Positions 1-62,330 of a stretch of 64,000 bases of DNA are shown piece after piece. The DNA is from Cyanidioschyzon merolae (taxonomy: Eukaryota), in the NCBI GenBank assembly GCA_000091205.1, contig AP006498.2; one strand, given 5' to 3'. A program made the position numbers and the translations under genes. Below the pieces are notes generated by a model. It saw only the letters and a program-made list of their open reading frames with translations, ran no database searches and was not told the origin of the DNA. Positions within the stretch are counted from its first letter, which is position 1. Each line of letters starts with the position of its first letter.

Positions 1-159
1 CCCCCCATTCCTCGGATCACATTGATTAGGTGATCTCAGTGCGGGAGCATCTATGACATCGGCGTCTTTTATTTCAATGGCGATAGGGTATTCTCCTCTG
101 ACGGTTTGATCTGGGCTCATACGCGTCTGGTATAGCGTCGTTTACTACATACCAAAGCT

Positions 160-3100
160 AATTGGAAATTACCACGGGCGCTTTGCTTTTTCTGGTTTAC
201 TGAACTTTTGCACTGACCAGACGGATTAAATCGCTTCTTTGATATTGGTTTCGAAAAAATCCTCTCTCATTCCGAACGATCCCTGTGCATTGCATTTCTT
301 TTTCTTACTCTCGGCCTTATTGGTCGTTTCACACTCTTATCCTACGCCGGATGCCTGCCGTATGCACCAGCCGTAATCTAGTTATCGCTGGTGCTGGTGC
401 ACTTAGGAAATACAGCAGCCTTGACAATCTACTGAGCGTGGCGGTGGAGGCTTGTTTCATGCAACGCGGAAGCATGGCTATTTATATTTCTTGGAGCCTC
501 CAAGCTGTACTATCAGCCTTCCTGCCTGGTAGTCGCGGTGCTTTGTATTGGAAGACCGCCACGCCAAAATTTATATTCAGATGCAGCATACTTGGTCATG
601 ATCCAACAATCAAATGCGTTCGACTGAGATGCTCAGGTGCGGTTCATCCCTCGCCACTGAAAAGTCACACGGAGGACAGGCCGGTTCGTTCTCGCGGCTC
701 GCACACCTCCCGCCTAATCTAACAGTGTGACCATACGCAAAAACTTCTCTCTTCAACGTTTCCGGTTGGTGGCGATAGTACTTGCTATTCCGTTTGTGTA
801 TATTGTTGTACTAGTTGGCATCTTCTATGTCGTGCGCCCTGGTGACGCATCGCGAAATCTGGCCGTCACCTCACACTACGTGCGTCTTGCCGATCAAAAG
901 AAACGTGTTAATGACCTCTTGTGGAGCGACTGCTGTATCGGGGCCACTTGTTTTTGCGATCGAATCGTATCAAATTGTAGTTTTGGCTTCAATAGCGTTT
1001 CAATCTTCAAGTAAATTTATTCAACTGATTTTCGCCTTTCAAAGCAGAAGCGTCCAATGAGTTTTTCTCCCAAATAAAATTGACTCATGTAAATCAAGGG
1101 GGTGGGGGGTACGGGGTGGCAGATGTGCCCGGATGTCAGAACGAAACGAGACATGCTGCCCAGCGAAGAGGGCCAGGAAAAAAGAAGAAGCAACATTTGG
1201 AGGCCTTAGATCGAAGGCTGCCATGGTGACGTCTGTACGACGAGATGGTGGTGGAATCCTATCTTCTCCAACATATCAATGATCCGTACGACTGATTGTT
1301 GCGAGACGCTATCAGAAAGCGTGTCGGTTCGTACGCCAGGTATGTTTGTACCTTCTCTTTAGGACGTTGGCATTTGGAGAGCGAGCTGCATCCGGAGGTA
1401 ACGCACATCGCAGAAGTGATGTTTCCGGAAGAAATTTTCCAAAAGACTTTCATCAACCACCTGATTGTTTTTAATGGGAAAACATCGAGGATAAATGAGC
1501 GAGTGCATGCCTTTCTCAAAAATTACGCCAAGTACCTCGTCATCGGTGCTGTACACAGGGGTGACGTAGATATTTACGAATACAGGGCAAAGAGGTGCCT
1601 CAGGAATGTGAGGAACCGTAGCATCGCAACCCTCGATTGTTTCATGATACGCGTCGTCTTTGCGCTGTACCCGGGCCTATTTCGCGAAGCGATGCTTGCA
1701 ATCATCGATGGTATGAAGAACGATCGCCAGCATGAACAGGAGATCAGATTCGTCGACAAGAGGACATCACGCCCGAGAAGGAATATTGCTTTTGTTATCC
1801 GCGCGACTATTCTAAAACATCGTTCACGCTTGGGGCTTGTCGACCCTAGAGAAAAACTGTCAGATATGATCAAAAAAGACGAAGAAAGATTTTAGTCCCT
1901 CATCCTGCCCTACTTCATTTTTCCGACCGAAAACTCGAACGCAAGGCTGACATGGAGCTGAGTTTGGAAAAATGACCGACGGGAGAACGGACGTTGAAGA
2001 GCTTCTCCAGATGCGCTTCGTTGTCGTCCGGTTACGCGAGTTCAAGTCACATGTTGTGAATATCGACTCTAGAGTCCTTTACGCCTTCATGAAAGAGTTC
2101 TATCCAGTGCTCGATATAAGCAACAAAGGGGCCACCGGCGAAGACCGGGACACCTACTGGAAGAAGCATTTCGATTCCAAGTGTCCCAAACCGGCCAAAA
2201 AAGGTATTCACGGGGACCATCGATAACGATGATGGATACATATGGGTACATTAGTAGCGGTTGTAAGTACTTCGTCCTATCTCGTCTTCGTTGTCGCCGT
2301 TGCCGATGCACGAACAGAAGAAGATGGGCGATGGAACGTATAATCGCCACGAAAACGACTTTGTCGTCGACCTTAACCCTAGGAACACGAATATCATAAC
2401 AATCGCAATACCCGAGTGTGCGGAAGATGGTACTGAATGTAACGTACGTCAGAGAGACATGCATCTTTTGAGGCTCTCGAGAGCGAGATACTATCGAGAA
2501 TCCTGTATAATGAATGCAAAAAAGAAAATTGCAGCATGGAATGAAGGAATGAAAGAGCATATGGAAGCTATGGGCGAGGTGACTAGCCGCGGAGCGGACT
2601 ATAAAGCTTTTCGGAAATTCATGGAAGTTCGCGTCGCTCATTGGGATGCGCTGTGGAAGGAGTATACAAAGCCCCGGTGGGCTCGTCTGCGAATAAATTT
2701 GTATTGCGGGAACCAGCGGGCGTTCGCCAACTTTTTCAATCAATTGGGTGCCTTGAAATAGGATGACAGTCAGAGGCTCGCAGTAGCGTATGGATCAGGG
2801 CGATGGAAGACCCAAAAGGGACTACTCCAGCTCTGTCGACAAGAACATACAATGTGTGTTAACGGCGTTTCGTCACGATACCTGTCGATGAGTTTCGAAC
2901 GTCCTATACACACCATGAACTGGGTTATACACTTCAGAGAGTGGAGGTAGAAAAGGGCCAGCGGAGCCCTGAGGATATAGAAAAGTACGGACCGCTGATG
3001 GAGGAGCAAATGGAAAGGCGAACGAAAGTCCGAGGGCTACTCGCATTGGTGAGTGCAACTTCCAATGGCAAGTTACGTATGGGGTTTGTGAACAGAGACT

Positions 3101-3317
3101 TTAATGCCGCTATCAAGATACGGAGGTGTGCGATGCTGGAGAACAGACCTCCAGAATAGACAAGAATGATCTTTGTTGGACAATATCCCAAAGTCGGATT
3201 ATATGAGAAAAAGTTTGAGCCAGTAGTAGGTGGCCGGTACAAAAAGACGGGGAGGCGTCTGCACGTTAGTTGGAGACGTCTTGTCTAGTGCGGGTTTCTC
3301 GCCACTACTGTACACTG
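160..3317 (+). mobile_element. Copy A of a TnpB/Fanzor-like element. The left boundary is uncertain and may reach the window start; the right end is at the conserved ...GCCACTACTGTACACTG.
   Basis: Nucleotide and peptide homology to copy B (21440..24635), traced by eye from about 160 to 3317 (about 60-75% identity). It contains a decayed Fanzor-like reading frame. Homology to copy B stops exactly after CACTG at 3317. Confidence 0.55.
1296..3288 (+). pseudogene. Decayed TnpB/Fanzor-like nuclease gene, copy A. Frameshifts and stops split it into ORFs 1296..1895, 1972..2226, 2291..2761 and 2941..3159.
   Basis: RuvC-I-like ENDFVVDLNPRNTNIITIAIPE. RuvC-III signature FVNRDFNAAIKI (D-x-N-A-A-x-N-I). 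A shared tail PVVGGRYKKTGRRLHVSW is followed by TAG at 3286..3288. The pieces lie in different frames, so the gene is not intact. Confidence 0.6.
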
Positions 3318-4034
3318 TTGTCGTTTGACTTAGAACGGCGTTGTTGGTGTCAGGGCTTCGATGCATAATATGTTTACGCTTTCGTGTCTTGTAATCTTCC
3401 GTTTTCGTGCTTTCCACTGCAGGAGTGGTAAAATTGTGCAACTGTAATCCACTTCTGCTTCACAGCCGTCTGGTGCCATTCTATATGATGTATCAGTGTC
3501 ACTTTCTTTTCGGTTTTTTTGAGACAATGTATTCCATCACTGATTCTGATATTTTTTCCTCGTATAAATTCCTGAATGCCTTACACCACCGCTTCGAGAG
3601 TCAAGCAACAGAGCAGACCGTTAACATCCACAAATGTGAAAACAGTCTGACGGAACGCCTCGCAGCTTGACAGCCTCCACGACATCTCCAAGCTTCGATG
3701 CATGTGTATCGCGGATCGACCTGTCTCAAGTGACCAACAGGACCTGCTATTTTCAGCCACGGCTCGATGATGCATCACATCTCGTTTCCATTCTATTGTC
3801 AATCCACAAATTTTGCGATCGCGTGGATCCATGGATGCAACCTCACCCATACATCTACAGGGCTCAGGTTCCATTCATGACCAACGTACCTTACAATATG
3901 CTGTTTGAAGCCTTCTTTGTTATAAATAACATGTTTTCATCACCGCTCGTTCATACATTTCAGACAGTAGGCGTAGCAGCTCATGATGGGGCTCACGTCC
4001 TGGTCGACCGTGGACTCTGCATCAGCTTCGCTGC

Positions 4035-6323: not shown

Positions 6324-8883
6324 AGGAGAGACTTAGTCGTGTTCCCTAAAACAGCACGCCGGGGAACAGGCTCTTCAAAAAGAGCGACAAAAACTTTAGT
6401 CACTTACCAGCAGCCTTTGTAAAAAACCTAGGCGGGACTCGCCTGAACGCGTATCTCCCGTGCGTAATCGTTGGGTTCCGCCATGTCGCCGCCGCGGCGA
6501 ACGCACACGTGGCAGAATGGTAGTTATGCCCATGTTTTCGTGACATAAAATTTGCCGTGACATCGATGCCCCATTGACGATTTCTAATAGCCCGGCCTCT
6601 CGAGGATATCCAAGGCACTTGCAGGTACTGCTCTTATTTCCGTGTCTTCTACGTACACGGATTTGTAGCGTTTAGGCATTAGCAAACGTTACGCAGCACA
6701 TGCCACCTCCGGCTTCGGAAACGAGACATATTTCTTCCGTCATTGCTGCTTTCTTTTGCTGATGCTGGAGACCTTATCAATGCGATTGCAAATAATTGGT
6801 TGTGTCCTCCGCGCAGGCCATATTAATTACGACCATTCCGGAGAGGAGACTGCGATTAAAGTCTATTCTGTGCCCTATGTTACCGATGGAGTCCGAACAT
6901 CACATTTGTATGATGTTAGATGGATGAATGCAGCAAAATCTTTCTGCGTACGTATGTTTCGACGAAGAACGTGAAAAAAAAACTTTGCCGTCAGGCACCT
7001 ACGCACTGGTGTAGTATGAGCCTCCAAAGTATTCATTTGTATAGAGATAAAAGACAGATCCAACAATCATCCCGCTATCAAGCAGCCTCAAAAGCTTGCT
7101 GCGACTCCGGATGCGCGAATGTCGCTGATACCCTACAGTGAACCAACTACTTCGCCATACAGCTGAGGCCGTTGGCCCGGAGCGTAGCACCCGCTGCGGG
7201 CTTGGGACTCTTCTTCTTTCTAGGACCCAGCAGGGCGCTGATACAGCCTTATTGCCGGCTCTGCGAAACAGTACGCTGGGAAACCACAGCGACCAGGGCG
7301 CCTATGAGACGCATGCCGCCGGTGGTAGTACCAGAAAAGCTGAACTAAAGTATTTTACTCTCAGCTCCCTTGTACGATCAAACCGGCACCGAATATGTGG
7401 GGTTCACGCTGACGCCTATGGCTGGTGGCGACTCGACCCGCTGCTTCTCGGACCACGCACCCCGACCTTCCTCTGGCAAGGACTACGCCTGTGACTGCTG
7501 TCGCCATGTGGCATCGAACTCGAATCCGTGGGCCGGGTCGACGCCCCGTGTTCCCGGTGAAGCGAGCAAGGGTAGAATTCGAAAGCTCACCAAGTGCGAA
7601 CGGGTTCGCCAACACTCGCTCATACAATATTTGAGCAAGAGTGCTGCTTTAGCCAACCTGTTACGCGCAATCGGTCATGTCCAGAATATTTTTTGCCCGT
7701 TGCGCTGCCCAGCCCGGGGCGAGCGCCGTGAATATATATTGCCTCGTGCACGAAAAAATAAACAATGCATACGGATAGGCACATTCTATGGGGCATATTC
7801 CTAGTAGGTGATTATGGGGAAGGTCAGTGAGACGACGGCAAATCCCGTTTGAATCGAGTAGCCAGAGAACGTGAACTTGCGCTTATACCAGACAATCTGC
7901 AGGGGACGGGCCGTCTTGCCCAGCGCATTGTGCGATACTTTCCAGTAATCTGACACCTCAGAAATAGCTCTAGTACAGCTGGGAATTTGATTCAGGGCAG
8001 GACCGTTGACCCTGAGCTCCATACAAGTGCGCCGAATCCAGAATCCAGCCCAAGCGCCACTCGCACACAAGATAGATCCCAATTGTTCAGAATTTTTACG
8101 CATACGTCCTGGTGGTACTCGGGTGTGCGCAGCCTCTGGATTCGTTGTCCATCCCGTAGTTGCCGTTACCTTTCTCTCTAGAATTTGATAGTGTGCGCGT
8201 CATGAGACCTCGCCCGCCGCTCTGTGTACTAACCTTCAAGCCCACGTCTTGGGCGTTACCGCTGCCAAGGAAATGAACAAAATACACGGAGAAGCATGTA
8301 CCATAAGCTTGTGTGAATTCTAGTTTCGTCCCTGGTACACCAGACTTCTAGTCGGGCCTTTTTCATTTTCGATGGTAAACGCAGTCGCCTAACACCTCGA
8401 TGGGCCGTTTATGGAGTAAAATATTTCGCAAGGCACCTCATACGTCACATCTGCTGCTGATGTGTGACCAAGAACGGGGAAACAATAGCTGAACACCCTT
8501 CCAAGTTGGTGCTGCGTCCAACTGCCCGCGTTTCCAACTACCTGCGCTTCAGTAGCCCAAGACTACTGCATCGCATGCAGACAGTAAGATTCCCGCTGAA
8601 TTTGCGGAGCACGGCATCACCTCGCGCTCAAGAACCCAAAGCCGCGAATGACGCCCCCGGTAGACAGCCGAGCCAGCGGGATGCGCAAGCACCGCCACGA
8701 AAAACCAGGGCACAACCACCATACGAGCAATGCTCTCCGGGTGCATGCCGATCCCGAGTCGATTTCGAAAACGTTTCTAACGCTGTACAGAAAAACGTTA
8801 TGCACGGACGTATGCGTATGACGGAAACAGACAGTACCGCTGTAACTCCCAGAACGAAGCATTGAGGATCACGCAAAGCTGCG

Positions 8884-21196: not shown

Positions 21197-21439
21197 GAGT
21201 AGATCAGATGGCTCCCAAGAGCAGGAGTCCTTCCTAGAATCGACTCACGTTGTTTCAGGTTCTAAAAGAGAAAAAGGACACAACACACACTAGAGCGCTT
21301 CACCACGAGAGCTCGTTCTACAGATCCCTCTGTTAGCGCAAGCAGTAGCACGGCGATACCGTAGTCCGTAGCAGGCACGCTGGCAGGGCCGACGTCGTGC
21401 CCTCCGGCACGCACCACGACTCCGGGTGTCCGTCGATCG

Positions 21440-24400
21440 CCGGCGGCGGCGGCAGCGGGTGCAATTCGTTTTGTTTTCGATGACAGAAGGCGTTTCCATG
21501 GATCAGGGGATCCCAGATTGCCGGATGGACGGGTATTGGCATTCGGGAATGCGTCCAGGATGCTGCAGCCTATCTCCAAGTTCCATTGCTTGTACTTTCT
21601 CTCGGAAATACTGGTTGTTCTGTGGGTTCTATCGTGAACAGAGTGCCTGCGTCGCTGCTCCCGCCGTAGCGTCTATATCGCTGGAGTGGATGCAGCACGG
21701 AGATAGAGCTGTGCTTTGTCGTACCACTGAGGGTATCTGTTCGAGGAACGCTTCACCTGAAACGGTGTCGGGATACATAGTGAGTTTGGGAGCCAGAAAT
21801 CTGTCCAGACAAGCCTAGTGCCTGCGACAGCTCGAATTGATATTCTGGGCGTCCACTGCGACCCGGGCGACGCCCAGATGCAGCGGAACTGCCCCGAGTC
21901 TCAGAGTCAACTGCGTTGCGTACGAGTTGCTCAGATCTCGCTAGAGCACCGGGCACGGAGGAGAGCATGGAGCACGAGCCTGGCAGACTCGCGCGGCTTG
22001 CAGGATCTGCCACCTATACGGTAAACTGTCGACAATATGGAGACATTTTCCCGCTTTTAACGTTTATCTCAGAGGACGAAAGAAATCGTTGTATCGTTGC
22101 TAGTTGGTGAATCGTTTTTGCTCTTTGTTTGCATAGCGCGGTCGATACGCGCACCTCCATATCTGGTAGTCACGAGATGCGCCTTGCATGTGGCAGTTGA
22201 AGGGAAACGCGAGACTGACCATTTTTTGACGTTTTGTTTTACTGTACAAGTCGCATTTGCGTTGAGCGCATAGCAAATTATAGTGTTTCATCTCAGTTGT
22301 GTTTTTACCTCCAAGCAAGTCTATTCAAGTGATTTTTTTGCGGTTTATAACTCAAGCGTTCAATGAGCGTTTTTTTTCAAAAATTAAAAAAAAAAAAGCA
22401 AGTATGGAGAAGGATGGTGAGGATCCTGGAGGCCTGGTATCACCGCTTGGCAGAAAAAAAAGCGAAAAACAGCGCCAAACAAAGAGGAACAGGAGAAGAC
22501 GAAAGAGCAGACGGTGGAGGCGTGACGTCATAAGCTGCGAGAAAGATGACAGTGCGACGAGATGGTAGTGAAAGCCTGCCTCCTTGGTCATATCAAGGAA
22601 CCGTACAGGCAAAAGTTGCTAGAGCCCATCAGAAATCATGTCAATTCGTAGTCCGCGAGCATTACAAAAGCCTTCTTCACGACTGAGGTACTTGGAAAAA
22701 TAGATGCATCGCGACGTTACATACATCGAAGCAGTCGAGGATACGGAAAAAGCTTTGAGCAAGGCCTTCATCCACCACTTCACGATTGGCACGGAGACAA
22801 TGTCGGGGAGCAATGAGCGAGTTCACGTCCTCCGGGAAAATTACGCCAAATATCGCTTCAACGGTACTCGATACAGGTGTGATGCGGATATTTGCACCTA
22901 CGGGGCGATCAAGTACCTCACGAGCCTGAAGAACCAAAGGACCATCAACCTCGAACATTTCATGGTGCGCTCCATCTTTACACTCCACCAGGGGCCTGTC
23001 TGGAAAAGAGAGCTAGGCTATTATAGATGGCATCACGAACGATCCCCATCATGAAGATGAGATCGAATTTGTCGACATGAAGACATCACGCATGAGAAAG
23101 AGTGAGGCTTCTGCGATCCGTACGGCAGCACCGGAGCACTGTTCGGTTCTGGGGCTGGCGAATCCAGCAGAAAACTGATCAAATGTTAAAAAAGATGTAG
23201 AAAGATGTTATCCCCGTATCAAGCGGTATTTCGTGTTCCTAAATCGAGAACTCGACCGTAAGGCCGAAAACAGCTGAATATGGAAAAAATGAAGAGTCGG
23301 AGAGACGCAAGGCTGTCCTGATGGGGAAGCGCTTCAATATCGTCACGTTGTGCAATATCAAGTCACATCTTGTGACAATCGACTCCAGAATCCTTTACGG
23401 CATCATGAAGGAGATCAGTCCATAGTTCGATGTAAGGAAGATATGGTTCACCTGCGAAAACCGAGAGACGCACCGGAAGAGTATCTTCGACTTCAAACGT
23501 CTCAAACGAGGAAGGAAAAGCCATCCATGGGGACGATCGAAAGCGATGGGGTAGCCATGTATGTACACTATCGGCGGTTGGAGGCGGATCGTTCTGTTCT
23601 GTCCTCGGGTTCGCCCTCTGCGAAATATGAACATTAGAAGGAGGTGGATCCCGCGACGCAGAAAGTGCATGAGAACGACTTTGTCTTTGGTGCGAACCCC
23701 GGGGGTACGAATATCATAACGATCGCAGTACCCAAGCGTGCGGAAGATGGTGTTGACGGCGATTTACGTCAGAGAGACATGCGTGTTTCGAGGTTCTCGA
23801 GAGCAATATACTATCGAGAATCCGGTAAAATGAATGCGAGGAAGAAAATTGAGACACGGAATGCAGGAGTGAAAGAGCACCTGGATGCTTTGAGCGAGGT
23901 GACGAGCCGCGGAGCGGACTGGCAAGCTTTTCGGGAGTTCATGGAAGTTCGCGTTGCTCGCTGGGAGGCGCTGTGGGAGGAGTGTACAAAGCCCCGATGG
24001 GCTCGTTTGCGTATGAATTTGTAGTATGGGACACAGCGCGCGTTCGCGAACTTTTTGAATGAGTTGAGAGCCCTGAAGGAGGATGAAAATCAGAGGCTCG
24101 TATTAGCGTACGGAGCAGAGCGATGGACATCGAGAAAAGGATGTATGCCAGCTCCAACGACAACAACGTACAAGGAGTGTGCGCGGCGTTTCATTACGAT
24201 ACATGTAGATGAGTTCCGAACGTCCTATACACACCATGAACTGGGGTGTACACTTCAGAGGGTCGAGATGGAAAAGTGCCAGCGGAGCCCTGAGGATATC
24301 AAAGAGTACGGAGTGCTGACGGAAGAGCAAATGGAAATGAAGGCGAAAGTTCGAGGGTTACTTGCACTAGTGAGTACAACTACCAACGGCAAGAAACGGA

Positions 24401-24635
24401 TGGAGTTTGTGAATCGTGAATTTAATGCTGCTATCAATAAAAGATGTGCGGTGATCGAGAAAAGACCTCCAGAGTTGACACGAAGGAATTTTGTTGGACA
24501 ACCTCTTGAGGTGGGATTATATGAGAAAAAGTTGAAACCAGTAGTAGGTGGCCGGTCCAAAAAGACTGAGAGGCATCTGTACATCAGTTCGAGACGTTTT
24601 ATCTAGTGCGGGCCGTTCGCCTCCCCTGTGCACTG
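21440..24635 (+). mobile_element. Copy B of the TnpB/Fanzor-like element, about 3.2 kb and the most complete copy. The right end is at CACTG, 24631..24635.
   Basis: Collinear homology to copy A across the whole length: a non-coding left part (21440..22400), a basic NLS-like ORF, then N-terminal, middle and RuvC regions. The 29 nt after the stop codon are conserved with copies A, C and D. Confidence 0.6.
22400..24606 (+). pseudogene. Decayed TnpB/Fanzor-like RuvC nuclease gene, copy B. The RuvC half (23644..24606) is in one frame broken by a single in-frame TAG at 24022; there are upstream frameshifts near 22568/22704 and 23054.
   Basis: Basic N-terminus MEKDGEDPGG...GRKKSEKQRQTKRNRRRRKSRRWRR. 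RuvC-I-like [23 protein letters not shown], in which the catalytic Asp is replaced. ...HVDEFRTSYTHHELGC... and the RuvC-III signature EFVNREFNAAINK. The tail KLKPVVGGRSKKTERHLYISSRRFI is followed by TAG at 24604..24606. Confidence 0.65.
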
Positions 24636-24953
24636 CCGGCGGCAGCGTGTCCATCTCACCAGTGTTCCTTCACCGCGCACTGAAAAACAAACAAAAAAGA
24701 GAAAAAAAAGCGCACAGATGGAGAACGCTGGCCTATGGAAACGATTTGTCCATTAATTACCAGACCGCATTCGTTTATTCTGTATGAATTCATACATAAA
24801 TGTACTAAAAGGACAGTGCGCGGCGTGACTGCCGTCGCGCACGCAGCTCTACGTGCAGCGCATTGGCACACAACTGCAGTTCCCCTAGTTGTACGATACG
24901 GCCTGTTGCCGCTGGACCCCGCAGCTTGCACAGCACACTGGTGACACGTCGAA

Positions 24954-30789: not shown

Positions 30790-31195
30790 ATATCGTTATG
30801 ACTTTGAAACCAGGTATCGGTACACCTATGAATTCAGAGCACAAGCTCAATGCAGTTCAGACAGGCGTGCTTCCGATATCATTCATACTTTCGACGCAAG
30901 TATCAGTACACCAGTGGCTTCAATGCACATGCTCAATGCAGTTCAGACAGGCGTGCTTCCGATATCATTCATACTTTCGACGCAAGTATCAGTACACCAG
31001 TGGCTTCAATGCACATGCTCAATGCAGCTCAGACAGGCGTGCTTCCGATATCATTCATACTTTCGACGCAAGTATCGGTACACCAGTGGCTTCAATGCAC
31101 AAGCTCAATGCAGCTCAGACAGGCGTGCTTCCGATATCATTCATACTTTCGACGCAAGTATCGGTACACCAGTGGCTTCAATGCACATGCTGAAC
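30790..31195. repeat. 86-bp tandem minisatellite: about 4 full units plus degenerate partial units at each end.
   Basis: The unit gctcaatgcagttcagacaggcgtgcttccgatatcattcatactttcgacgcaagtatcagtacaccagtggcttcaatgcacat starts at 30845, 30931, 31017 and 31103, an exact 86-bp period. The period is not a multiple of 3. The same peptide appears in three ORF frames (30437..31327, 30798..31193, 30850..31623), so these ORFs are artefacts of the repeat. Confidence 0.9.
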
Positions 31196-31777
31196 GCATC
31201 TCGGGTATGCCAGGGATCCAGGGGGAATCCAGAGTCTTCACTGTTGCTTGCGAACAATGCTTTTATCCGGCTTTTCAGACGATGCCAGCACCCAAGTTCA
31301 GAGCCCAGTGTCAACTACCGCAACTGAAGACTCCGCAAGCACAAGTCCTGCATCCTCCGACGGGTTGCGTTTCTTGTAACGCCCTTGAAGCCTCCGGAGG
31401 TGAGACGTCAGCAGACCTGGCGTCGACGGCGCACAGACCTGCGGATACTCGACAGCGATACGCTCGGCTGCTCAGCAGTTCGGATTTGAGGCGAGCGCCA
31501 ACTGGACTGGATCGTTCTACGCTTCTAGCTTGCGACGAGTCAACGGACATTGTCTACTTAGTCGACACTATACCAAAACGTGAGCTGAACGGCTTTTCGC
31601 TGCCCGCAGAGCTTTGGCGCTGAGGGCACTGACGGTGCGTCGCGTGCAGCGAGCCTACAGCTTGAACGCGGAGGTACTGCAGCTGGCGAACAGAGTCGCC
31701 GGGCCAAGGAAGCTCGCTGGTCGAAACACAGGCCTCAGCTCACGGATTTACTGCTTAGTAGTGGTCTCGTTGGCGCC

Positions 31778-35803: not shown

Positions 35804-35999
35804 TGTCGACGGGAGCACTGCGAATAAACGAGTTCGGGTTTACTTGAAGCAAAGTTTGTTCGGGCGACGAAGACGAGTGCGGCTTCATGCGCTGCAAATG
35901 AAAGCATTCGGGTTCACCAGAAACGCTGGTTTATCCTGTTTCCAGCACCGCCGGCTGCGTGTGCAGGCGCCCCGGCAGCGCCAGCACATGAACGCAGGC

Positions 36000-36155
36000 C
36001 ATGCACGAACCCGTACGGTAGAGAATGAACTGCTTCGGAGACCTCAGCTTCTTGAGTTGTACTGTTCGCCATGGGATACAGGCCGTGCACGAACCCGTAC
36101 GGCAGAGAATGAACTGCTTCGGAGACCTCAGCGTCTTGAGTTGTACTGTTCGCCA
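36000..36155. repeat. Two tandem copies of a 77-78-bp unit, about 200 bp downstream of the kinase gene stop.
   Basis: catgcacgaacccgtacggtagagaatgaactgcttcggagacctcagcttcttgagttgtactgttcgccatgggat is repeated with 3 substitutions. Confidence 0.85.
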
Positions 36156-38950: not shown

Positions 38951-40589
38951 CTAGTTTCAGGGACAACTGGAGGAAGCGCTACTTCCCAGCGAACGCGAAA
39001 CCTGGCCCGGGGTTTGCTAAAAGATGATATTTGGCTTCGAGCTCGATATCCAAAAGCGCTTGCCGGGTGTTAGGTTGCCGTCTCGACGAGAGCAGGGGCC
39101 CGTCGTCCAAACTATGATCAAACCGCGAGTGATAAGCAGAAGATAAAGGTATCAGTGAGCTAGATGCTAGTTAAGAGAAGCAGCTCTTTTCTAGCGTTCA
39201 ATACAACTCGTTGTGATCACTATACGGTAAAGCTATTTTGCGGGCTACCGACAGAACACCAGAGACAGCTTCTTCAAAGCGTCCAGCACGCCATGTCGGG
39301 TGGAGTACGAGACACACCTACTGGTGAACTAGATGACGTATATCTGAGGCAGCTGTTCCCTTGCGTTTGTGCTGTGGTTACTGGTCATCTACCGACGGGC
39401 TCTCTAGTGACAACACCCAGTCGCATAGCAATTCGCCACGGCGCTACGCTCAAGGTAATCGTCGATGGATTCAGGTTTGTTGCTCCCCCTGCAGAGGGTA
39501 ATTCGATGCTACTTTGCGGCGGATAGCAGGAGATCGACATCAACAAGTAATTTTCCATATAGATCACAGGCGAACTACCAGTAGGATAGATGCTTCATTG
39601 TGCAGTGCAGTGAAGACTGCAATCCTTCTTCAGGTAAGTAATACTATAGTACTCAGATGCATGAGGGACACTGAAAGAAAGATGTGTACGAGCACTGCGC
39701 CAAAAACCGGTATTCTTAAAGACTGCTTGCTCTCAACGTTATGAAAACGACCCGATGATCATCCGACGAAAAGCAAAAGCGACGATCGTAGCCGCCAAGG
39801 CCTCTCTGTTTCTTAATAGCTTGTTCGCGTTGTCTTGAAAACACTGGTGTACAATCGCAAAAAAAGTCCTAGTTCAAGAAAGGACCTCTTCTACCGAAAT
39901 CGCATCTGCTATAGCTTTTCTGGGACTCAGCAATCGTTATTCAGTACAAGAAGGTCGGCTTGTTTTTCAGTCGACGAGACGTCCTTTGCACGAAACGGTC
40001 TGAACTTGGATGGGTATTCCGAGAGGGGCAGCCCGCTGCATGTGCGATTGAACTCGAGGAGAACGGCTGAATCACCTATTCTAGATGGAGTGGATTCATT
40101 TAGCGGCCTCACATTTGCTCGTAGAGAAGGTCCGGACAGCAGCACCAACCCTTTGTCGAATCACTGAATACTTTTCCCCTGACGTCTGGCGACGGTCTTC
40201 CATTCGAAAACGCGGTATTTCATCGTTCCCCATGCGTTCACGCTTCTGCGGATCCTCTCGGATAGAGCTACTTTTCGATCCTCCGTACGCTGTGTGGTTC
40301 AGTCGCATCGAAGGATTATTTTCTACTGTGAAACCTAATGATCGCTCCACTGGGCGAGTCGCTAGATCCTTCAGCACATGATGACACACCGGTGCACGTG
40401 TCGTGTTTCGTCCGCAAGTCCTTCTCGCTCCATGAAGGCGCTCGCCTATGGGCACAAAGAAGCTCTTTTGCTTCTAAAAATAAAAAATCTACGGGAAATG
40501 TTTGAACATGCGAGTTTAGGATCCAAAAAAGCCATCACCGCCGGGTTCGACAAAAAACCAGAGAGCAAATCCTCTTCTCGCCGACCACG

Positions 40590-40930
40590 CAGCGAAGAAG
40601 AGCAAATGACGAAGAAGAGGAGAGATAGGCGAGGAAACTGTTTGCCTGATGTGGTGATGACGAGTCTGTAATGGAGCATCGGGCACGAGTTCTAGAAATC
40701 CTTGCACTGCTGAGTTCAACCAGCGGCAACATAAGTATGGATTTTGTCAGCCGAGAGTTCAACACCGACATGCATATCACACGGTATGCGGTGCTGAAGA
40801 AGAGACCCAAGTAGCTTACGCAATCAAACTTCGTGGACCAGCCTCTGATGCTTGACATGTGATTCGATAAACTGAGACCGATACCAGGCGGCCGGTCCAA
40901 AGAGGCAGGGAGGCGACTGCGCGAAAGTAG
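40590..40930 (+). pseudogene. Short 3'-terminal fragment (copy E) of the TnpB/Fanzor-like element (RuvC-III region only).
   Basis: It translates to ...EEEQMTKKRR...RVLEILALLSSTSGNISMDFVSREFNTDMHITRYAVLKKRPK.LTQSNFVDQPL...PIPGGRSKEAGRRLRE, collinear with the RGLLALVSTTTNGKKRMEFVNREFNAAINIRRCAVLE...NFVGQPL...PVVGGRSKKTERHL tail of copies A-D. Nucleotide similarity ends at 40925. Confidence 0.55.
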
Positions 40931-44949: not shown

Positions 44950-45129
44950 TGTTGGAGTCAGTCCAGCTCTTGATACGAACGTGAAACAAAGTGAACGACT
45001 TGCAAGGAGTGCCTCCTGTTTGAACGCGGATAACAGCGTAACAAATAGTTATGAAGCGCTTTGGATCGTCGCACGGGGTATTGACGCGCAGCCTTTTGTG
45101 ATTTATTGTGCTGGATAGAAAACGTACAT

Positions 45130-45748
45130 TGACCATTCATCGTTGATTCCGTGATTAGATATTGGCATTCGGTGAACGCATCCATCATGGTGCACGCTAC
45201 CTTCAAGTTCCATGACTTGTACTTTTTATCGGATGTACTGGTTATTTCGTACGTTCTATTGTGCACCGAGGCTGCCTTGATGGTCAGCAAAAGTGCCTGT
45301 ACCGATGATTCGAATGCTGCGCAGAGACTGCGAGGCATTGCCATATGACTGAGGACGTCAGCTGGAGGTATCGTTCACCCGACACGGCATCGGGATTCAT
45401 GATCATTCTGGAAGCTGGAAAGCCGTGCAGAAAGGCCTGCTGCCTACTGCCTGCGGCAGCGCGAAGCGGTATGCTCGGAGACGATCGGGTCTCGGGCGAT
45501 GTCTAGATGCATCCTGTTCGCTGCTCTTCTCAGCGTAATCTTCGTTGCAGACGTTCTGCTCAGATCTCTCTTCAGCACCCGACACTATAGATGCCTACAA
45601 AGTACAATCACCGTTGACTCGTCCGTCTCTAGGGCGCTTCCGCTTTGGCGATAAACTTTCGTAAATACGGAGAACGTTTCCCTGTTAAAATGGCTACCGT
45701 AGATTGCCAGAGGGATTCTCTTATCTGGTTGCTCGTTGGTGGTTCGAT
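45130..45748. repeat. Left arm of a near-identical (>99%) inverted repeat of about 616-620 bp.
   Basis: Reverse complement of 46624..47258. Compared windows (45130..45200 vs 47190..47258; 45700..45748 vs 46624..46700) differ by a single base. The ORF pairs 45585..45878(-)/46612..46803(+), 45403..45585(-)/46803..46985(+) and 44958..45344(-)/47044..(+) encode identical peptides. Confidence 0.9.
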
Positions 45749-46623
45749 TCCGTTCTCTTTTGAATTTATTATGTAAGGAAAACGCCCGCTCATCTCCGAG
45801 TTCTACCGCTCTCCATGATAGAATGCTCTGCAGCTGAGACGCTTCTATATGTTGTCGAAAACACGTGGTGTCTCGCATTCATTTACGACAATGCAAGACG
45901 GCAGCAACCGTTGCAGAAATCGCCAAACAAGCATATCTCTCTGCTGGAAGGAATGAGTCCGATTCCTCGTTCGCTGCACGAGTTCAGGCTCAGATCGCAT
46001 CTCACTTGAAAGACAGCACGGGACTGTGACAGCCACTCGTGAAATGCCTGCACAGCAGTGCAGTGTTGTGCCATGATTTTTCTGATAGGCCAGGATGTCC
46101 ATAGGTACTCGTCACAGCGTGGATGTTCTCTTCTGGTTTGCCTGATGCATGAGCCCGACACAAGGATGCACAGACGGAGCGCGCTCGGCCGAAGCAGCGA
46201 ACCTCTGATTGACCCGAAAAGAAGCTAGCAAGACATGCGATTACATGCACACAGTCGCATTTTTGTGCATGTTCTTCGAGGCGCTCAGCGCAAGTCGCGG
46301 GCAGGGAGATGTTCGCACTCTTGAAAGTCGGGCCCGTACATGGTGAGGTTTTTGGTCGTGCCCTGGCGGCCCGCACTTGAAAGGCATCTCTCGGATGGGC
46401 GATTAAGTCTCGCATGAGCGCCGGTGCCGAAACGATCAGGTTTTCGTCTGCGGGTCCCATCGCTAAAGCAAAAAGGAAACTCTCTGGAATTGTATCAATC
46501 TACAATATACTGTTCATTTAAGAATCTATCCAACTTCTGAACACGCCATTGCCGAAACAAATAGGTTCTTCAGCTGGCGAGTGCAGTGCGTAGAAGCGAA
46601 TCCGGTCAACAATGAATGCGGAA

Positions 46624-47258
46624 CGCATAGAAGAACGGAATCGAACCACCAACGAGCAACCAGATAAGAGAATCCCTCTGGCAATCTACGGTAGCCATTT
46701 TAACAGGGAAACGTTCTCCGTATTTACGAAAGTTTATCGCCAAAGCGGAAGCGCCCTAGAGACGGACGAGTCAACGGTGATTGTACTTCGTAGGCATCTA
46801 TAGTGCCGGGTGCTGAAGAGAGATCTGAGCAGAACGTCTGCAACGAAGATTACGCTGAGAAGAGCAGCGAACAGGATGCATCTAGACATCGCCCGAGACC
46901 CGATCGTCTCCGAGCATACCGCTTCGCGTTGCCGCAGGCAGTAGGCAGCAGGCCTTTCTGCACGGCTTTCCAGCTTCCAGAATGATCATGAATCCCGATG
47001 CCGTGTCGGGTGAACGATACCTCCAGCTGACGTCCTCAGTCATATGGCAATGCCTCGCAGTCTCTGCGCAGCATTCGAATCATCGGTACAGGCACTTTTG
47101 CTGACCATCAAGGCAGCCTCGGTGCACAATAGAACGTACGAAATAACCAGTACATCCGATAAAAAGTACAAGTCATGGAACTTGAAGGTAGCGTGCACCA
47201 TGATGGATGCGTTCACCGAATGCCAATATCTAATCACGGAATCAACGATGAATGGCCA
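46624..47258. repeat. Right arm of the same inverted repeat. The arms are separated by an ~870-bp unique spacer (45749..46623).
   Basis: See the left arm. Arm identity breaks at 45748/46624 on the inner side and 45130/47258 on the outer side. Confidence 0.9.
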
Positions 47259-47927
47259 ATCTATACGCTTTGTCAAACAAAAAACAATAGAAATGAATCC
47301 GCTTACAGCGAGGATCCAGCGCAGACGCGTCGCCCTACCGCCATCATATTCCACAATTGTGTATCATTGTCCAAGATACCGAGCAGCCGGAACAGAGGCC
47401 TCCTCCCGAGCCTTTCGCACCGCCTTGGCGCGACGGCTTTTTGAAGACCAGTATTCCAGCCGCAGCACCTGCTGCGTTTGCCCAGAGAGCAGCAGCCGTT
47501 CCGTGTGTGTGCCCTTTCTGGTTTCGAACGCTGTATTGAAGCACATTTTACGCACTCCACAGGGAAACAAGTGTCAAAAGCGCGTGTTGCACTATCAAGT
47601 ACGGTTCGTTGCCTGCGACGCAACGCTAGGTACAACGCTGCGCCTTTGCTCCGTGGCGCAGTGTGCAGCCTGCGAGCCTGTGCGCCTTGTGCACAGTCTG
47701 TGCACTCGTTTCGAGACTATCCAAGCGCGTGCTCAGCTGAGCGTAGAAGGAAGAATAAGTTTTCGTGGCATAGGTAGCGCATTTCAAAGGTTTGGCGCGG
47801 AACCGAAAGACGCACGGGGCAATCGCCGCCTCTGCTGGCCGGAAAACCGTCATGAAAAGCAGGTTGTGCTGCGGGAACGGCGAATCAGAAATAAGTTGGG
47901 TTCCACTTCGAGCTCCGTGGTGCGAAT

Positions 47928-59743: not shown

Positions 59744-59960
59744 ACGTAAATCGTCTGTTGCATACTATGCTCAAGATCAGCAAGAAAATAGTGGTTCAAC
59801 GCACAGCGCGTTCGTGCTCCTGCACGCTCTCCAAGTCGAGCGCTCTGAACGAGGCGGCACCTCCGGCTCGCTCGTGATGCGCGTTAACGTTCGAGCGGCG
59901 GTTTCGTGCACGCCCGACACCGCACCATCAACGCCGCTCTAAAGTCGAACGACTTCGGGC

Positions 59961-61100
59961 GTGTACAGTAGTGGCGGCAACCGTGCCCTAGACTTAAAGT
60001 CTCCAACTGAAGTGCAGACGCTTCCTAGGCTTTCTGGACCGGGCACTCACTACTGCTTCCAACTTGTTCTCATATAGTTCGAATTTGAGAGATTGTCCAA
60101 TAAAGTTCATTCTTGTCCGCTCTGGAGGTCTCGTCTCCAGCGCTGCACATCTGCTTATATTGATAGCGGCATTAAAGTCGCGATTCACGAATTCCATGCG
60201 TTTCGTGCCATCATTGGTTGTACTTACCAATGCAAGGAGTCCACGAACTTTCGCCCTCCTTTCCATTTGCTCCTCCGTCAGCGGTCCATACTTTTTTATA
60301 TCTTCAGGGCTCCGCTGTCACTTTTCCATCTCCACTCTCTGAAGTGTACACCCCAGTTCATGCTGTGTATAGGACGTTCGGAACACATCTATCGGTATCG
60401 TGACGAAACGCCGTGCACACTCTTTGTACGTTCTTGTCGTTGGAGCTGGTGTACACCCTTTTTGGGTCTTCCATCGCCCTGCTCCGTACGCGACTACGAG
60501 CGTCTGACTGTCATCCTCCTTCAAGGCGCTCAACTCATTGAAAAAGTTCGCGAACGCCCGCTGTTTCCCACAGTATAGATTCATGCGCAGACGAGCCGGC
60601 CGGGGCTTTGTATATTCTTCCCACAGCGCATCCCAATGCGCAAACCGATCTTCTATGAATTTCCGAAAAGCTGTAAAGCCCGCTCCTCGGCTCGTCACCT
60701 CGCTCATAGCTTCCAGGTGATCTTTCATTCCTGAATTCCACGTACAAATTTTCTTCCTCGCATTCATTATACCGGATCCTCGATAGCATCTTGCTCTCGA
60801 GAACCTCAAAAAGACGCATATCTTTCTGACGTAAGTTACCATCAGTCCCATCTTCCGCACACTTTGGTACAGCGATGGTTATGATATTCGTATTCCCAGG
60901 GTCCACGCCAACGACAAAGTCGTTATCCTGCACCTCCTGCATCGCAGGATCCCCATCATTCTCATCTACATCCTTCGCCGAGCCGTCTACAAGGTTGTAC
61001 TTTTCCACTTCCTGCGTCACAGAATCCGCGTCCTTCTCGTCTATATTCTTCGCCACGGGCGAAGCCGAAGACGGACCAGGAGACGGGCCCAACGGCGCTG
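59961..61100 (-). pseudogene. TnpB/Fanzor-like RuvC fragment, copy C. It is 5'-truncated just upstream of RuvC-I and lies head-to-head with copy D.
   Basis: Minus-strand ORFs 60535..61092, 60318..60860 and 59994..60266: ...[26 protein letters not shown] (RuvC-I with Asp) ... VDVFRTSYTQHELGCTLQRVEMEK ... RGLLALVSTTNDGTKRMEFVNRDFNAAINISRCAALE (RuvC-III). The stop at 59994 is followed 31 nt later by the conserved right end (+ strand gtgtacagtagtggc at 59961..59975). Confidence 0.65.
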
Positions 61101-62050: not shown

Positions 62051-62330
62051 TTGTACACTGGCTTTCCAGCGTTTCTCTTTTGCAAGGCGTTTGGTGGTGT
62101 TTCCAGAGACGAATTGTTTATCAAAAACGTCTTCTGTCGATCTTCGAAACCAACGTGCTGCTTCCTCTGTGCGGCACGGGGCGTACGCTATGCGCTTTTC
62201 TGCTGATTGACAGCGGAAGCGACAAGTCCGGTTACTGCCTTGAAGACTTAGACGCTTTGGAGAGACCATCATATCGATGGTTTCAGTTTTCTGACCTCCT
62301 CCTAACCACCACGCTCGGATCTCTGTTGCA

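What the first reader, a model, noticed from the sequence alone, without database searches (positions are those of the whole stretch)
160..1296. Copies A and B share about 1 kb of extra collinear homology upstream of the nuclease ORF, so the element is about 3.2 kb rather than ORF-sized
Stepping leftwards from the ORF, A (160..1296) and B (21440..22620) remain alignable block by block. Examples: cacggagga...ctcgcgcggct; cagatgcagc; ccgta..t.tatcgctgg.g.tgg.tgca; ggagcc..aa.ctgt; attcaa.tgattttt...caatgag.

No convincing protein emerges. Short ORFs 285..722 and 21426..21818 show only weak peptide similarity (SFSYSRPYWSF vs TFSRKYWLF).

A 1-kb conserved non-coding left arm is unusually long for an IS200/605-type element. 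It suggests one of three things. The TnpB-like gene may ride inside a larger eukaryotic transposon, as Fanzor1 genes often do. There may be a second, now unrecognisable, gene such as a transposase. Or the region may be a long structured RNA. Copy A's left limit may be cut by the window start.
Basis: seen in the sequence. Interest (0 to 1): 0.55.

Follow-up and report, generated by a model that had tools for sequence, protein, structure and literature searches.

The report
Known red-alga Fanzor transposon left arm
The extra 1 kb shared upstream of the two nuclease genes is real, but it is the already published 5' part of the 3.2-kb Fanzor1 transposon CMe-1A of the red alga Cyanidioschyzon merolae, so the finding is a rediscovery.

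Summary
Window 194-1296 and 21478-22613 are collinear homologues (about 60% identity, E 3e-48), and each element is about 3.17 kb.

It is not new. The 3169-bp CMe-1A consensus published by Bao and Jurka (2013) aligns end to end with copy B (82%) and copy A (75%).

The arm has three parts:
- A roughly 635-bp module equal to the ORF-less repeat TE-N2_CMe. Two solo copies lie at 45.1 and 46.6 kb as a 99% identical inverted pair.
- A 270-bp leader.
- The first roughly 70 codons of the Fanzor1 ORF. The ORF really starts near 1087 and 22404, not 1296.

Tests on the arm found no hidden gene (no codon periodicity, stops in every frame). They found no conserved RNA structure, no Rfam match, no terminal inverted repeats and no target-site duplication. 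Copy A is not cut by the window edge: the window starts with a telomere repeat unit.

Both copies are dead pseudogenes. A conserved hairpin region that could be a guide RNA lies at the 3' end, not in the arm.

Related metagenome loci show that the Fanzor core is joined at one fixed point to at least four different 5' modules. How the family moves remains unknown.

The parts
1..9 (-). One telomere repeat unit (AATGGGGGG on the minus strand). The window begins at a chromosome end.
   Evidence: Exact match, the only one in the window. AATGGGGGG is the C. merolae telomere repeat, and the published assemblies hold at most 2.5 units at chromosome ends.
194..820 (+). Copy A: TE-N2-type 5' terminal module (CMe-1A consensus 1-635)
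   Evidence: Global mapping to the published consensus gives 64.8% identity. nhmmer with my own TE-N2 consensus matches 188-798, E 6e-44.
821..1086 (+). Copy A: non-coding leader (consensus 636-905). It begins with GC-rich palindromes and is A/T-rich just before the start codon.
   Evidence: 70.4% identity to the consensus. This leader is present in all family members regardless of their 5' module.
1087..3288 (+). Copy A: Fanzor1 pseudogene (consensus ORF 906-3110, 734 aa). The ATG is lost, there are 12 frameshifting indels, and the RuvC-I Asp is replaced by Asn.
   Evidence: The RuvC-II motif VDEFRTS and the RuvC-III motif NRDFNAAIKI can still be read.
3289..3350 (+). Copy A: 3' terminal non-coding region, about 60-75 nt after the stop codon. 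It holds the GGCG...CGCC stem, the conserved ACTACTGTAC stretch and the terminal hairpin. In copy A itself the terminal hairpin has largely decayed.
   Evidence: Consensus position 3169 maps to 3340. Sequence read. Family-wide hairpin statistics are; copy A's own terminal 44 nt fold no better than shuffles (z = +0.2).
21478..22125 (+). Copy B: TE-N2-type 5' terminal module (consensus 1-635)
   Evidence: 81.1% identity to the consensus. nhmmer matches 21471-22129, E 1e-130.
22126..22403 (+). Copy B: leader (consensus 636-905)
   Evidence: 80.3% identity.
22404..24606 (+). Copy B: Fanzor1 pseudogene. The ATG is kept, there are 6 frameshifting indels, RuvC-I is GANPG (Asp to Asn) and RuvC-III is NREFNAA (Asp to Glu).
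   Evidence: The orthologous copy in metagenome contigs is 99% identical.
24607..24652 (+). Copy B: 3' region, cut off inside the 5' arm of the terminal hairpin (homology ends at consensus position 3152-3156)
24664..24757 (-). Fragment of a divergent TE-N2-like element (its 5' end), inverted, abutting the truncated 3' end of copy B
   Evidence: nhmmer with the consensus of the 'inverted' 5' module, E 8e-11. Sequence read.
45118..45758 (+). Solo TE-N2 copy (aligns only to consensus 7-648), left arm of a 99% identical inverted pair
46631..47275 (-). Solo TE-N2 copy (consensus 4-636), right arm of the inverted pair. An 875-bp spacer lies between the arms.
59936..61081 (-). Copy C: 5'-truncated CMe-1 copy (consensus about 2093-3165), 88.7% identity
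61029..62088 (+). Copy D: 5'-truncated CMe-1 copy (consensus 2091-3168), 77% identity, head to head with copy C
40454..40930 (+). Internally deleted, decayed CMe-1 remnant (pieces of the leader and of the 3' ORF)
7120..7341 (+). TE-N2 fragment (consensus 194-418)

Best explanation
**What it is (shown).** Window 194-1296, and its counterpart 21478-22613, is the 5' third of a decayed copy of CMe-1A. CMe-1A is the roughly 3.17-kb Fanzor1-carrying transposable element of Cyanidioschyzon merolae described by Bao and Jurka in 2013.

The arm has three collinear parts:
1. A roughly 635-bp terminal module that also exists alone as the ORF-less repeat TE-N2_CMe.
2. A roughly 270-bp leader found in every member of the family.
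3. The first roughly 70 codons of the 734-aa Fanzor1 ORF, a lysine/arginine-rich N-terminus.

The arm is non-coding up to the true start codon and has no conserved RNA fold.

**How it most likely works (inferred).**
- The TE-N2 module is the cis-acting left end of the mobile unit. It is the only part shared with an ORF-less repeat that Bao and Jurka counted at about 70 copies. A deletion derivative (TE-N2 positions 1-510 fused to core position 440 onward) recurs at four or more different loci, which shows that module and core move as one unit.
- The module or the leader probably also supplies the promoter.
- The RNA-guided function of Fanzor, if it still operates in intact relatives, is served from the other end. 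[quoted passage not shown] This is where the omega RNA of other Fanzor1 elements lies.
- The enzyme that actually moves the element is not encoded in it and remains unknown.
For: **Identity of the element.**
- The published CMe-1A consensus (3169 bp, read from Additional file 2) aligns over 1-3152 with window 21478-24648 at 82% identity. It aligns over 6-3147 with window 199-3325 (nhmmer) at about 75% identity.
- The paper reports about 150 copies at about 80% identity to the consensus. It also reports a 5' 635 bp 95% identical to TE-N2_CMe (about 70 copies), no terminal inverted repeats and no determined target-site duplication.

**The TE-N2 module.**
- Solo copies at 45118-45758 and 46631-47275 match consensus positions 4-648 only.
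- A consensus I built independently from metagenome loci starts and ends at the same bases.

**ORF start.**
- The published protein starts MEKEVEDPGGPVSPAAGKKRK. Copy B reads MEKDGEDPGGLVSPLGRKK.
- An intact 772-codon frame exists in L009.

**Fanzor1 membership.**
- A profile of 46 distant relatives hits solved Fanzor1 structures: 9cf0 (E 1.5e-19), 8gkh (7e-11) and 9cer (1.6e-5).
- The DPG motif and the alternative-position glutamate are present.

**The composite moves as a unit.** The same TE-N2(1-510)/core(440-) junction occurs in L046, L059/L064/L080, L068 and L070.

**3' hairpin.**
- 24 of 43 unique copies have a terminal stem of at least 12 bp, against 10% of shuffles, with 2.65 G-U pairs per stem.
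- RNAalifold predicts a 10-bp stem in one subfamily.
Against: **Function is untested.** No transcription or transposition data exist for this element, so the roles proposed for the arm as cis-acting left end and as promoter are untested.

**TE-N2 and the core share no terminus.** Local scores for all end-against-end comparisons, on both strands, equal those of shuffles. It is therefore unclear how one machinery could mobilise both.

**Many relatives lack the TE-N2 module.** They carry other 5' modules joined at the same core position. The module is therefore not essential to the Fanzor core.

**Divergence within copy A is uneven.**
- Identity to the consensus rises from 65% in the module to 85% in the 3' half of the ORF.
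- This fits divergence of master copies before insertion.
- It would also fit a later juxtaposition of parts of different age.

**Species is inferred, not read from a record.**
- The telomere repeat and the CMe-1A match point to C. merolae.
- The 99% identity to hot-spring metagenome contigs shows only that the same organism occurs in those samples.
Confidence: 0.88

Rival explanations
1. **Juxtaposition of two independent elements.** The Fanzor 'core' (leader plus ORF plus 3' hairpins, about 2.5 kb, starting with a GC-rich palindrome) would be the real mobile unit. TE-N2 would be an unrelated repeat that repeatedly ends up next to it. This could happen because one element inserts site-specifically beside the end of the other, or because 5' modules are exchanged by recombination at a fixed breakpoint. 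On this reading the left arm of A and B is partly a neighbour rather than part of the element.
For: **A fixed junction with several 5' modules.** In 80 related loci the core starts at the same nucleotide (+/- 2) but is preceded by one of four things:
- TE-N2 in direct orientation.
- A TE-N2-like element in inverted, head-to-head orientation (about 6 loci).
- An unrelated roughly 550-bp module X (about 9 loci).
- An unrelated module Y longer than 1 kb (4 loci).

**Further points.**
- L053 has one TE-N2 flanked by a core on each side.
- An inverted TE-N2-like fragment also abuts the 3' end of copy B.
- A similar pattern of variable 5' and constant 3' regions was reported for MCi-2 in Mucor.
Against: - A deletion derivative spanning the TE-N2/core junction recurs at four or more loci. 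The composite has therefore been copied as one piece.
- Bao and Jurka could build one 3169-bp consensus from about 150 copies.
- A neighbour-joining tree of 14 TE-N2 modules is star-like and does not separate solo from linked copies either way.
- This rival overlaps with the best explanation: one old fusion followed by amplification satisfies both.
Confidence: 0.3
2. The arm holds a second gene, now unrecognisable, such as the missing transposase.
For: - Short ORFs exist at 285-722 and 21426-21818.
- The consensus has one 110-codon ATG ORF.
- The element encodes no transposase, so one is 'missing'.
Against: - The consensus 5' 905 bp has 7-13 stops in every frame.
- Variability by codon phase is flat in 14 copies (0.203/0.205/0.203), against 0.157/0.098/0.071 in the Fanzor ORF.
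- tblastx similarity is the same in all six frames and runs through stops.
- The authors of the family annotated a single protein.
Confidence: 0.03
3. The arm is a long structured RNA, for example a 5' guide RNA like the omega RNA of IscB.
For: - The region is a long, collinear, conserved non-coding stretch next to an RNA-guided nuclease gene.
- Small palindromes occur near the TE-N2 5' end and at the start of the leader.
- On the antisense strand RNAalifold gives z = -4.2 against column shuffles. The energy is only -13 kcal/mol over 713 columns.
Against: - RNAalifold on 14 copies gives -10.25 kcal/mol over 713 columns, and the covariation term does not favour the structure.
- The sense-strand z-score is -1.3.
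- Conservation is flat along the module, 0.73-0.85 per 20 columns.
- Rfam gives no match even at E <= 1.
- Characterised Fanzor omega RNAs lie at the 3' end. This family has its conserved hairpins there.
Confidence: 0.05
4. The shared 3.2 kb is a segmental duplication of host DNA that happens to include a nuclease gene.
For: Only two full copies lie in this window, and both are pseudogenes.
Against: - 352 confirmed matches in metagenome contigs lie in different flanking contexts.
- Homology stops sharply at the same bases in dozens of loci.
- Parts of the unit occur six more times in the window itself.
Confidence: 0.01

Closest known systems
CMe-1A (Fanzor1 element) and TE-N2_CMe of Cyanidioschyzon merolae, Repbase families described by Bao and Jurka, Mobile DNA 2013 (PMC3627910)
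   Same: - The 3169-bp consensus aligns end to end with both copies.
- The element has one ORF of 734 aa.
- The 5' 635 bp equals an ORF-less repeat.
- There are no terminal inverted repeats, and copies are old (75-89% identity to the consensus).
   Different: Nothing essential differs.
- Copies A and B are pseudogenes.
- Copy B has lost its terminal hairpin to a TE-N2-like fragment.
- The related metagenome loci add 5' module variants (inverted TE-N2-like, X, Y) that the paper does not mention for this species.
MCi-2 Fanzor1 family of Mucor circinelloides (same paper)
   Same: Subfamilies share the Fanzor-encoding 3' region and differ in 1-3 kb of 5' region. There are no terminal inverted repeats and the class is unknown. 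The relatives of CMe-1 show the same pattern.
   Different: MCi-2 copies are 99% identical in a 6-kb 3' region and have 11-12-bp target-site duplications. No duplication is visible here. The two families are not sequence relatives at the DNA level.
Spu-1 elements and 'ghost' loci of Spizellomyces punctatus (Saito et al., Nature 2023, PMC10432273)
   Same: A Fanzor1 element is accompanied by more numerous ORF-less partner repeats of about 550-650 bp. [quoted passage not shown] CMe-1 has conserved hairpins in the equivalent roughly 75 nt.
   Different: - Spu-1 is 2.1 kb with 30-nt inverted repeats at both ends.
- Its ghost loci keep both ends, including the omega-RNA-like right end.
- TE-N2 shares only the left 635 bp with CMe-1A and has no inverted repeats.
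Bacterial IS200/IS605 elements with TnpB, and their miniature derivatives
   Same: - The nuclease is a distant TnpB relative.
- The element has no terminal inverted repeats and no visible target-site duplication.
- Hairpins sit at the start of the core and at the right end.
   Different: - There is no TnpA gene.
- The left non-coding region is about 900 bp rather than tens of bases.
- The ORF-less partner shares one end only.
- Pfam TnpB models do not reach the protein.

Membership tests
CMe-1A transposable element (C. merolae) | Collinear alignment to the published 3169-bp consensus over its whole length | tested here: met
   Copy B: consensus 1-3152, 82% identity. Copy A: consensus 6-3147 by nhmmer, 75% identity.
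CMe-1A transposable element (C. merolae) | The 5' roughly 635 bp also exists alone as the ORF-less repeat TE-N2_CMe | tested here: met
   Solo copies at 45118-45758 and 46631-47275 align to consensus 4-648 only. Further solo copies occur in L048/L049, L045 and L051.
CMe-1A transposable element (C. merolae) | No terminal inverted repeats | tested here: met
   Local alignment scores of every end against every other end, on both strands, equal those of shuffles.
CMe-1A transposable element (C. merolae) | Single ORF encoding the 734-aa Fanzor1 protein | tested here: met
   The frame is recognisable throughout but broken by 12 (copy A) and 6 (copy B) frameshifting indels. An intact relative exists in L009.
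Fanzor1 (eukaryotic TnpB-like RNA-guided nuclease) | Sequence relationship to experimentally characterised Fanzor1 proteins | tested here: met
   - The family profile A2 finds 1401 relatives.
- A profile of 46 of them (A5) hits Parasitella (E 1.5e-19), Spizellomyces (7e-11) and Guillardia (1.6e-5) Fanzor1 chains.
- The link is indirect: a direct search with the narrow family profile found nothing.
Fanzor1 (eukaryotic TnpB-like RNA-guided nuclease) | RuvC-I DPG motif, RuvC-II glutamate six residues before the zinc-finger position, RuvC-III RD.NAA.NI (criteria from PMC10711439) | tested here: met
   - Family consensus: GADPGNTN, VDEFRTSYTHH and NRDFNAAINI.
- In the window copies, the RuvC-I Asp is Asn in both A and B, and the RuvC-III Asp is Glu in B. 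Both copies are therefore catalytically dead.
- The first zinc ligands appear to be HH rather than CxxC.
Fanzor1 (eukaryotic TnpB-like RNA-guided nuclease) | Omega RNA transcribed from the right end and bound by the protein | not testable with these tools
   Only indirect evidence: conserved terminal hairpins with G-U pairs in the roughly 75 nt after the stop codon. No RNA data are available.
Fanzor1 (eukaryotic TnpB-like RNA-guided nuclease) | RuvC fold | tested here: inconclusive
   The AlphaFold2 model built on the shallow family alignment had a mean pLDDT of 34, so no fold search was run.
IS200/IS605 insertion sequence | TnpA (Y1 HUH) transposase gene in the element | tested here: not met
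   No second reading frame in the 3169-bp unit and no codon periodicity in the 5' 905 bp.
Helitron | 5'-TC and 3'-CTRR termini, with a hairpin 10-12 nt before the 3' end | tested here: not met
   - The element ends ...GAAAGGCG(TTTGTTGTT) with no CTRR.
- The hairpin is terminal rather than subterminal.
- The authors, who identified Helitron-borne Fanzors in other species, left this family unclassified.
TIR DNA transposons (Mariner, MuDR and others carrying Fanzor1) | Terminal inverted repeats and a target-site duplication of fixed length | tested here: not met

The most novel reading that the evidence does not exclude
**The reading.** The Fanzor 'core' is a self-contained unit bounded by hairpins. 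In natural populations it is joined, at one and the same nucleotide, to at least four unrelated 5' modules. These include TE-N2 in both orientations.

**What that would imply.** The family would spread by a mechanism that needs only the 3' end. Candidates are one-ended or rolling-circle-like copying, or nuclease-triggered homing that uses dispersed repeats such as TE-N2 as landing pads. The left arm of A and B would then be a captured landing pad rather than a classical transposon end.

**Status.** Bao and Jurka did not describe this for C. merolae. My data neither establish it nor exclude it.
Probability: 0.15. Interest if true: 0.55.

Novelty: already known. Interest (0 to 1): 0.15.

Why it matters
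As a discovery it does not matter much. The 3.2-kb unit, its 635-bp ORF-less partner and the absence of terminal repeats were published in 2013.

The check is still useful in three ways.
- It corrects the start of the nuclease ORF by about 210 bp.
- It places copy A 185 bp from a telomere repeat.
- It rules out a hidden gene or a structured RNA in the arm.

The open question it touches is real. Nobody knows how Fanzor1 elements without terminal repeats or a transposase move, or why their ORF-less partner here shares only the left end. C. merolae has a complete genome and efficient homologous-recombination genetics, so it would be a good organism in which to test the native role of Fanzor.

Tried and rejected
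**Protein identification.**
- Pfam scans of the ORF fragments, of long family proteins and of ten distant relatives gave no TnpB or Fanzor family above threshold. One relative gave a sub-threshold hit to the Cas12f1-like TNB domain, E 0.0023.
- A PDB sequence search with the narrow family profile found nothing relevant. Only the wider profile worked.
- AlphaFold2 on the 15-sequence alignment gave pLDDT 34, so I did not run a fold search.

**RNA structure at the 3' end.** RNAalifold on all 3' ends together predicted nothing. The cause is that two hairpin variants are out of register in the MAFFT alignment. Folding each copy separately and folding one subfamily were informative.

**Termini and target-site duplications.**
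- I looked for empty sites in 99%-identical metagenome contigs. Copy B is present in all four contigs. Contigs next to the solo TE-N2 pair break inside the repeat. No target-site duplication could be derived.
- End-against-end alignments for terminal inverted repeats or shared termini between TE-N2 and the core were at background.

**Origin of the composite.** A neighbour-joining tree of 14 TE-N2 modules, meant to decide between one or many fusions with the core, was star-like and uninformative.

**Telomere association.** I searched the 80 related loci for telomere repeats. None had any, so a telomere-adjacent position is not a family trait.
Full report
**What the window is.** The window is eukaryotic and gene-dense, with long uninterrupted ORFs and 55% G+C. 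Host genes include a Utp12/WD40 protein, a mitochondrial carrier, ribosomal protein L34e, a kinase and a tyrosine phosphatase.

Its first nine bases are CCCCCCATT, the reverse complement of AATGGGGGG. Nozaki et al. 2007 report AATGGGGGG as the telomere repeat of all 40 chromosome ends of Cyanidioschyzon merolae. They also note that the assemblies hold at most 2.5 repeat units at each end.

Hot-spring metagenome contigs are 99.2% identical to the window over 16 kb. I conclude that the window is the left end of a chromosome of C. merolae or a very close relative. This is an inference, not a record lookup.

**Check of the observation.** A first blastn found only 1158-3317 against 22474-24635 (72%) plus a short block. 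With relaxed scoring, A 290-1289 aligns with B 21581-22606 at 59.5% identity over 1039 columns, E 3.4e-48.

For the part upstream of the obvious block, the Smith-Waterman score is 55. Dinucleotide shuffles give 12.6 +/- 1.2.

**What it is.** A literature search found that Bao and Jurka (Mobile DNA 2013) list one Fanzor1 family in C. merolae, CMe-1A. They describe it as follows:
- about 150 copies, each about 80% identical to a roughly 3-kb consensus;
- no terminal inverted repeats, and target-site duplications not determinable;

Their supplementary table gives a length of 3169 bp and a single 734-aa protein. I read the consensus from their Additional file 2 and aligned it to the window:

| Window feature | Consensus positions | Window coordinates | Identity |
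|---|---|---|---|
| Copy B | 1-3152 | 21478-24648 | 82% |
| Copy A | 6-3147 (nhmmer) | 199-3325 | about 75% |
| Copy C, 5'-truncated | 2119-3165 | 59936-60980, minus strand | 88.7% |
| Copy D, 5'-truncated | 2091-3168 | 61029-62088 | 77% |
| Solo TE-N2 (two copies) | 4-648 | 45118-45758; 46631-47275, minus strand | 73% |
| Remnants | partial | 40454-40930; 7120-7341 | not computed |

The finding is therefore a rediscovery of a published element.

**Anatomy of the arm.** Mapping through the consensus gives these boundaries:

| Part | Consensus | Copy A | Copy B |
|---|---|---|---|
| TE-N2 module | 1-635 | 194-820 | 21478-22125 |
| Leader | 636-905 | 821-1086 | 22126-22403 |
| Fanzor1 ORF | 906-3110 | 1087-3288 | 22404-24606 |

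The published protein starts MEKEVEDPGGPVSPAAGKKRKTVPSPEEQEKTKKQKRE. Copy B still reads MEKDGEDPGGLVSPLGRKKSEKQ, and L052 is open through this stretch into the nuclease domain. The last fifth of the 'non-coding arm' encodes a basic N-terminus.

Copy A has lost the ATG and carries 12 frameshifting indels. Copy B carries 6. Both have Asn in place of the RuvC-I aspartate, and B also has Glu in place of the RuvC-III aspartate. Both copies are dead.

**Is the ORF really a Fanzor?** Pfam and a narrow-profile PDB search found nothing. An exhaustive HMMER search found 1401 relatives, many of them 600-700 aa long. A profile of 46 of these hits three solved Fanzor1 proteins:
- Parasitella parasitica, 9cf0, E 1.5e-19;
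- Spizellomyces punctatus, 8gkh, E 7e-11;
- Guillardia theta, 9cer, E 1.6e-5.

The family consensus carries the features that Yoon et al. give as Fanzor hallmarks: the DPG form of RuvC-I, and the glutamate six residues before the zinc-finger position (VDEFRTSYTHH). A structure prediction failed for lack of alignment depth.

*A second gene.*
- The consensus 5' 905 bp has 7-13 stops in each frame.
- Column variability in 14 independent TE-N2 copies is flat across codon phases (0.203/0.205/0.203). The Fanzor ORF gives 0.157/0.098/0.071.
- tblastx similarity is equal in all frames.

*A structured RNA.*
- RNAalifold on the 14 copies gives -10.25 kcal/mol over 713 columns, and the covariation term does not favour the structure.
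- The sense-strand z-score against column shuffles is -1.3.
- The antisense strand gave z = -4.2 in the same call, at only -13 kcal/mol. I did not pursue it.
- Conservation along the module is flat.
- Rfam has no match in the window.

*A larger transposon.* This is true in the sense that the unit is 3.17 kb. But the ends of TE-N2 and of the core share nothing with each other on either strand, and I see no target-site duplication around A, B or the solo copies.

[quoted passage not shown] They contain a GGCG...CGCC stem, an invariant ACTACTGTAC stretch and a long terminal hairpin.

The hairpin comes in two variants whose arms differ by compensating changes...CGTTTTTC/GAAAGGCG... and ...CGTCGTTCG/CGAACGGCG.... 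Its outer part pairs with the last 8-12 nt of the element.

24 of 43 copies have a stem of at least 12 bp, against 10% of shuffles. There are 2.65 G-U pairs per stem, which would be mismatches on the other strand. RNAalifold recovers a 10-bp stem in one subfamily. Copy A's own terminal hairpin has largely decayed (z = +0.2).

[quoted passage not shown] By analogy the RNA component of CMe-1 lies at the 3' end, not in the arm. This is inference; no RNA data were available.

**What related loci add.** A metagenome scan returned 80 loci, out of 352 confirmed matches. Across them, conservation extends leftwards only to the start of the leader. Upstream of that point the family splits:
- TE-N2 in direct orientation, as in A and B (about 10 distinct loci);
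- a divergent TE-N2-like element inverted, with its 5' end abutting the leader (about 6 loci);
- an unrelated roughly 550-bp module X (about 9 loci);
- an unrelated module Y longer than 1 kb (4 loci, more than 90% identical to each other).

The junction is at the same core nucleotide, just before a GC-rich palindrome. That palindrome reads GCGCTCGGTGAGCGC in most classes and GCGCGGTCGATACGCGC in the CMe-1A class.

A deletion derivative that fuses TE-N2 position about 510 to core position about 440 recurs at four or more loci. The TE-N2 plus core composite has therefore been copied as a unit. Bao and Jurka describe the same pattern of variable 5' and constant 3' regions for MCi-2 in Mucor, but not for C. 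merolae.

A tree of 14 TE-N2 modules could not tell whether the fusion happened once or repeatedly.

**Mechanism.**

*Shown:*
- the identity of the element;
- the three-part composition of the arm;
- the absence of coding and RNA-structure signals in the arm;
- the pseudogene state of both copies.

*Inferred:*
- The TE-N2 module is the cis-acting left end of the CMe-1A subfamily and perhaps its promoter.
- The Fanzor protein of intact relatives works with an RNA from the right end.
- The mobilising enzyme is supplied in trans or is unknown.

The main rival, which partly overlaps, is that core and TE-N2 are separate elements brought together by site-specific insertion or module exchange.

**Verdict.** The feature is already known, so interest is low. 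The only part that goes beyond the 2013 description is the modular 5' end seen in related loci. It leaves the transposition mechanism of this family as open as it was.

Noticed in passing
window 1-194: The window starts with one telomere repeat unit (CCCCCCATT). Copy A begins only 185 bp further in, with its 5' end facing the telomere. None of the 80 related loci carries a telomere repeat, so this position is not a family trait.
   Followed up: partly
window 45118-47275; L085 and L086: - Two solo TE-N2 copies form a 99% identical, 632-bp inverted repeat around an 875-bp spacer that holds a 152-codon ORF with no Pfam match.
- Their first roughly 25 nt are only about 65-70% alike. This suggests gene conversion between two old insertions.
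- Two metagenome contigs carry the spacer in opposite orientations relative to the neighbouring methyltransferase gene. This is either flip-flop inversion or an assembler ambiguity at a repeat longer than the k-mer.
   Followed up: partly
window 59936-62088: Two 5'-truncated CMe-1 copies (C and D, 73% identical to each other) lie head to head. Both break in the acidic-repeat region of the ORF, and their matches overlap by about 50 bp. The arrangement is an old palindromic rearrangement.
   Followed up: partly
window 24650-24760: Copy B has lost its terminal hairpin. Homology ends inside the 5' arm of the hairpin, where an inverted fragment of a divergent TE-N2-like element begins. The same variant sits head to head against the 5' end of Fanzor cores in about six other loci.
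   Followed up: partly
L005-L084 (for example L006, L011, L027 for module X; L005, L014, L015 for module Y): Fanzor cores of this family carry at least four alternative 5' modules joined at one fixed nucleotide. Module Y copies are more than 90% identical over more than 1 kb and may be the youngest subfamily. Their outer boundary was not reached.
   Followed up: partly
family proteins P0002-P0037 (alignment A2, columns about 230-400); window about 2290-2340 and 23600-23640: The number of a roughly 25-residue acidic repeat just before the RuvC-I motif (VTKDEDEKEADPATQEVEDNDLVV) varies from one to about six among family members.
   Followed up: no
window 53214-54070: An 8.8-copy tandem array of a 97-bp unit (98% matches) in a region of low G+C (0.50), between two large ORFs. 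Its nature is unknown.
   Followed up: no
window 30814-31202 and 35995-36161: Tandem repeats of 86 bp (4.5 copies) and 84 bp (2 copies). They lie just before and at the end of the 1341-codon kinase/ankyrin ORF (31778-35803). Copy number at the first array appears to differ between the window and the metagenome contigs.
   Followed up: no
window 4035-6323 (minus strand): A 762-aa protein with Kelch beta-propeller repeats followed by a Hedgehog-type Hint module (Pfam E 4e-32), directly next to copy A.
   Followed up: no
proteins P0009, P0017-P0020 and others: The protein database lists a precomputed Pfam hit PF26935 for several family members. The local Pfam copy returned no family for P0009, and I could not find out what PF26935 is.
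   Followed up: no
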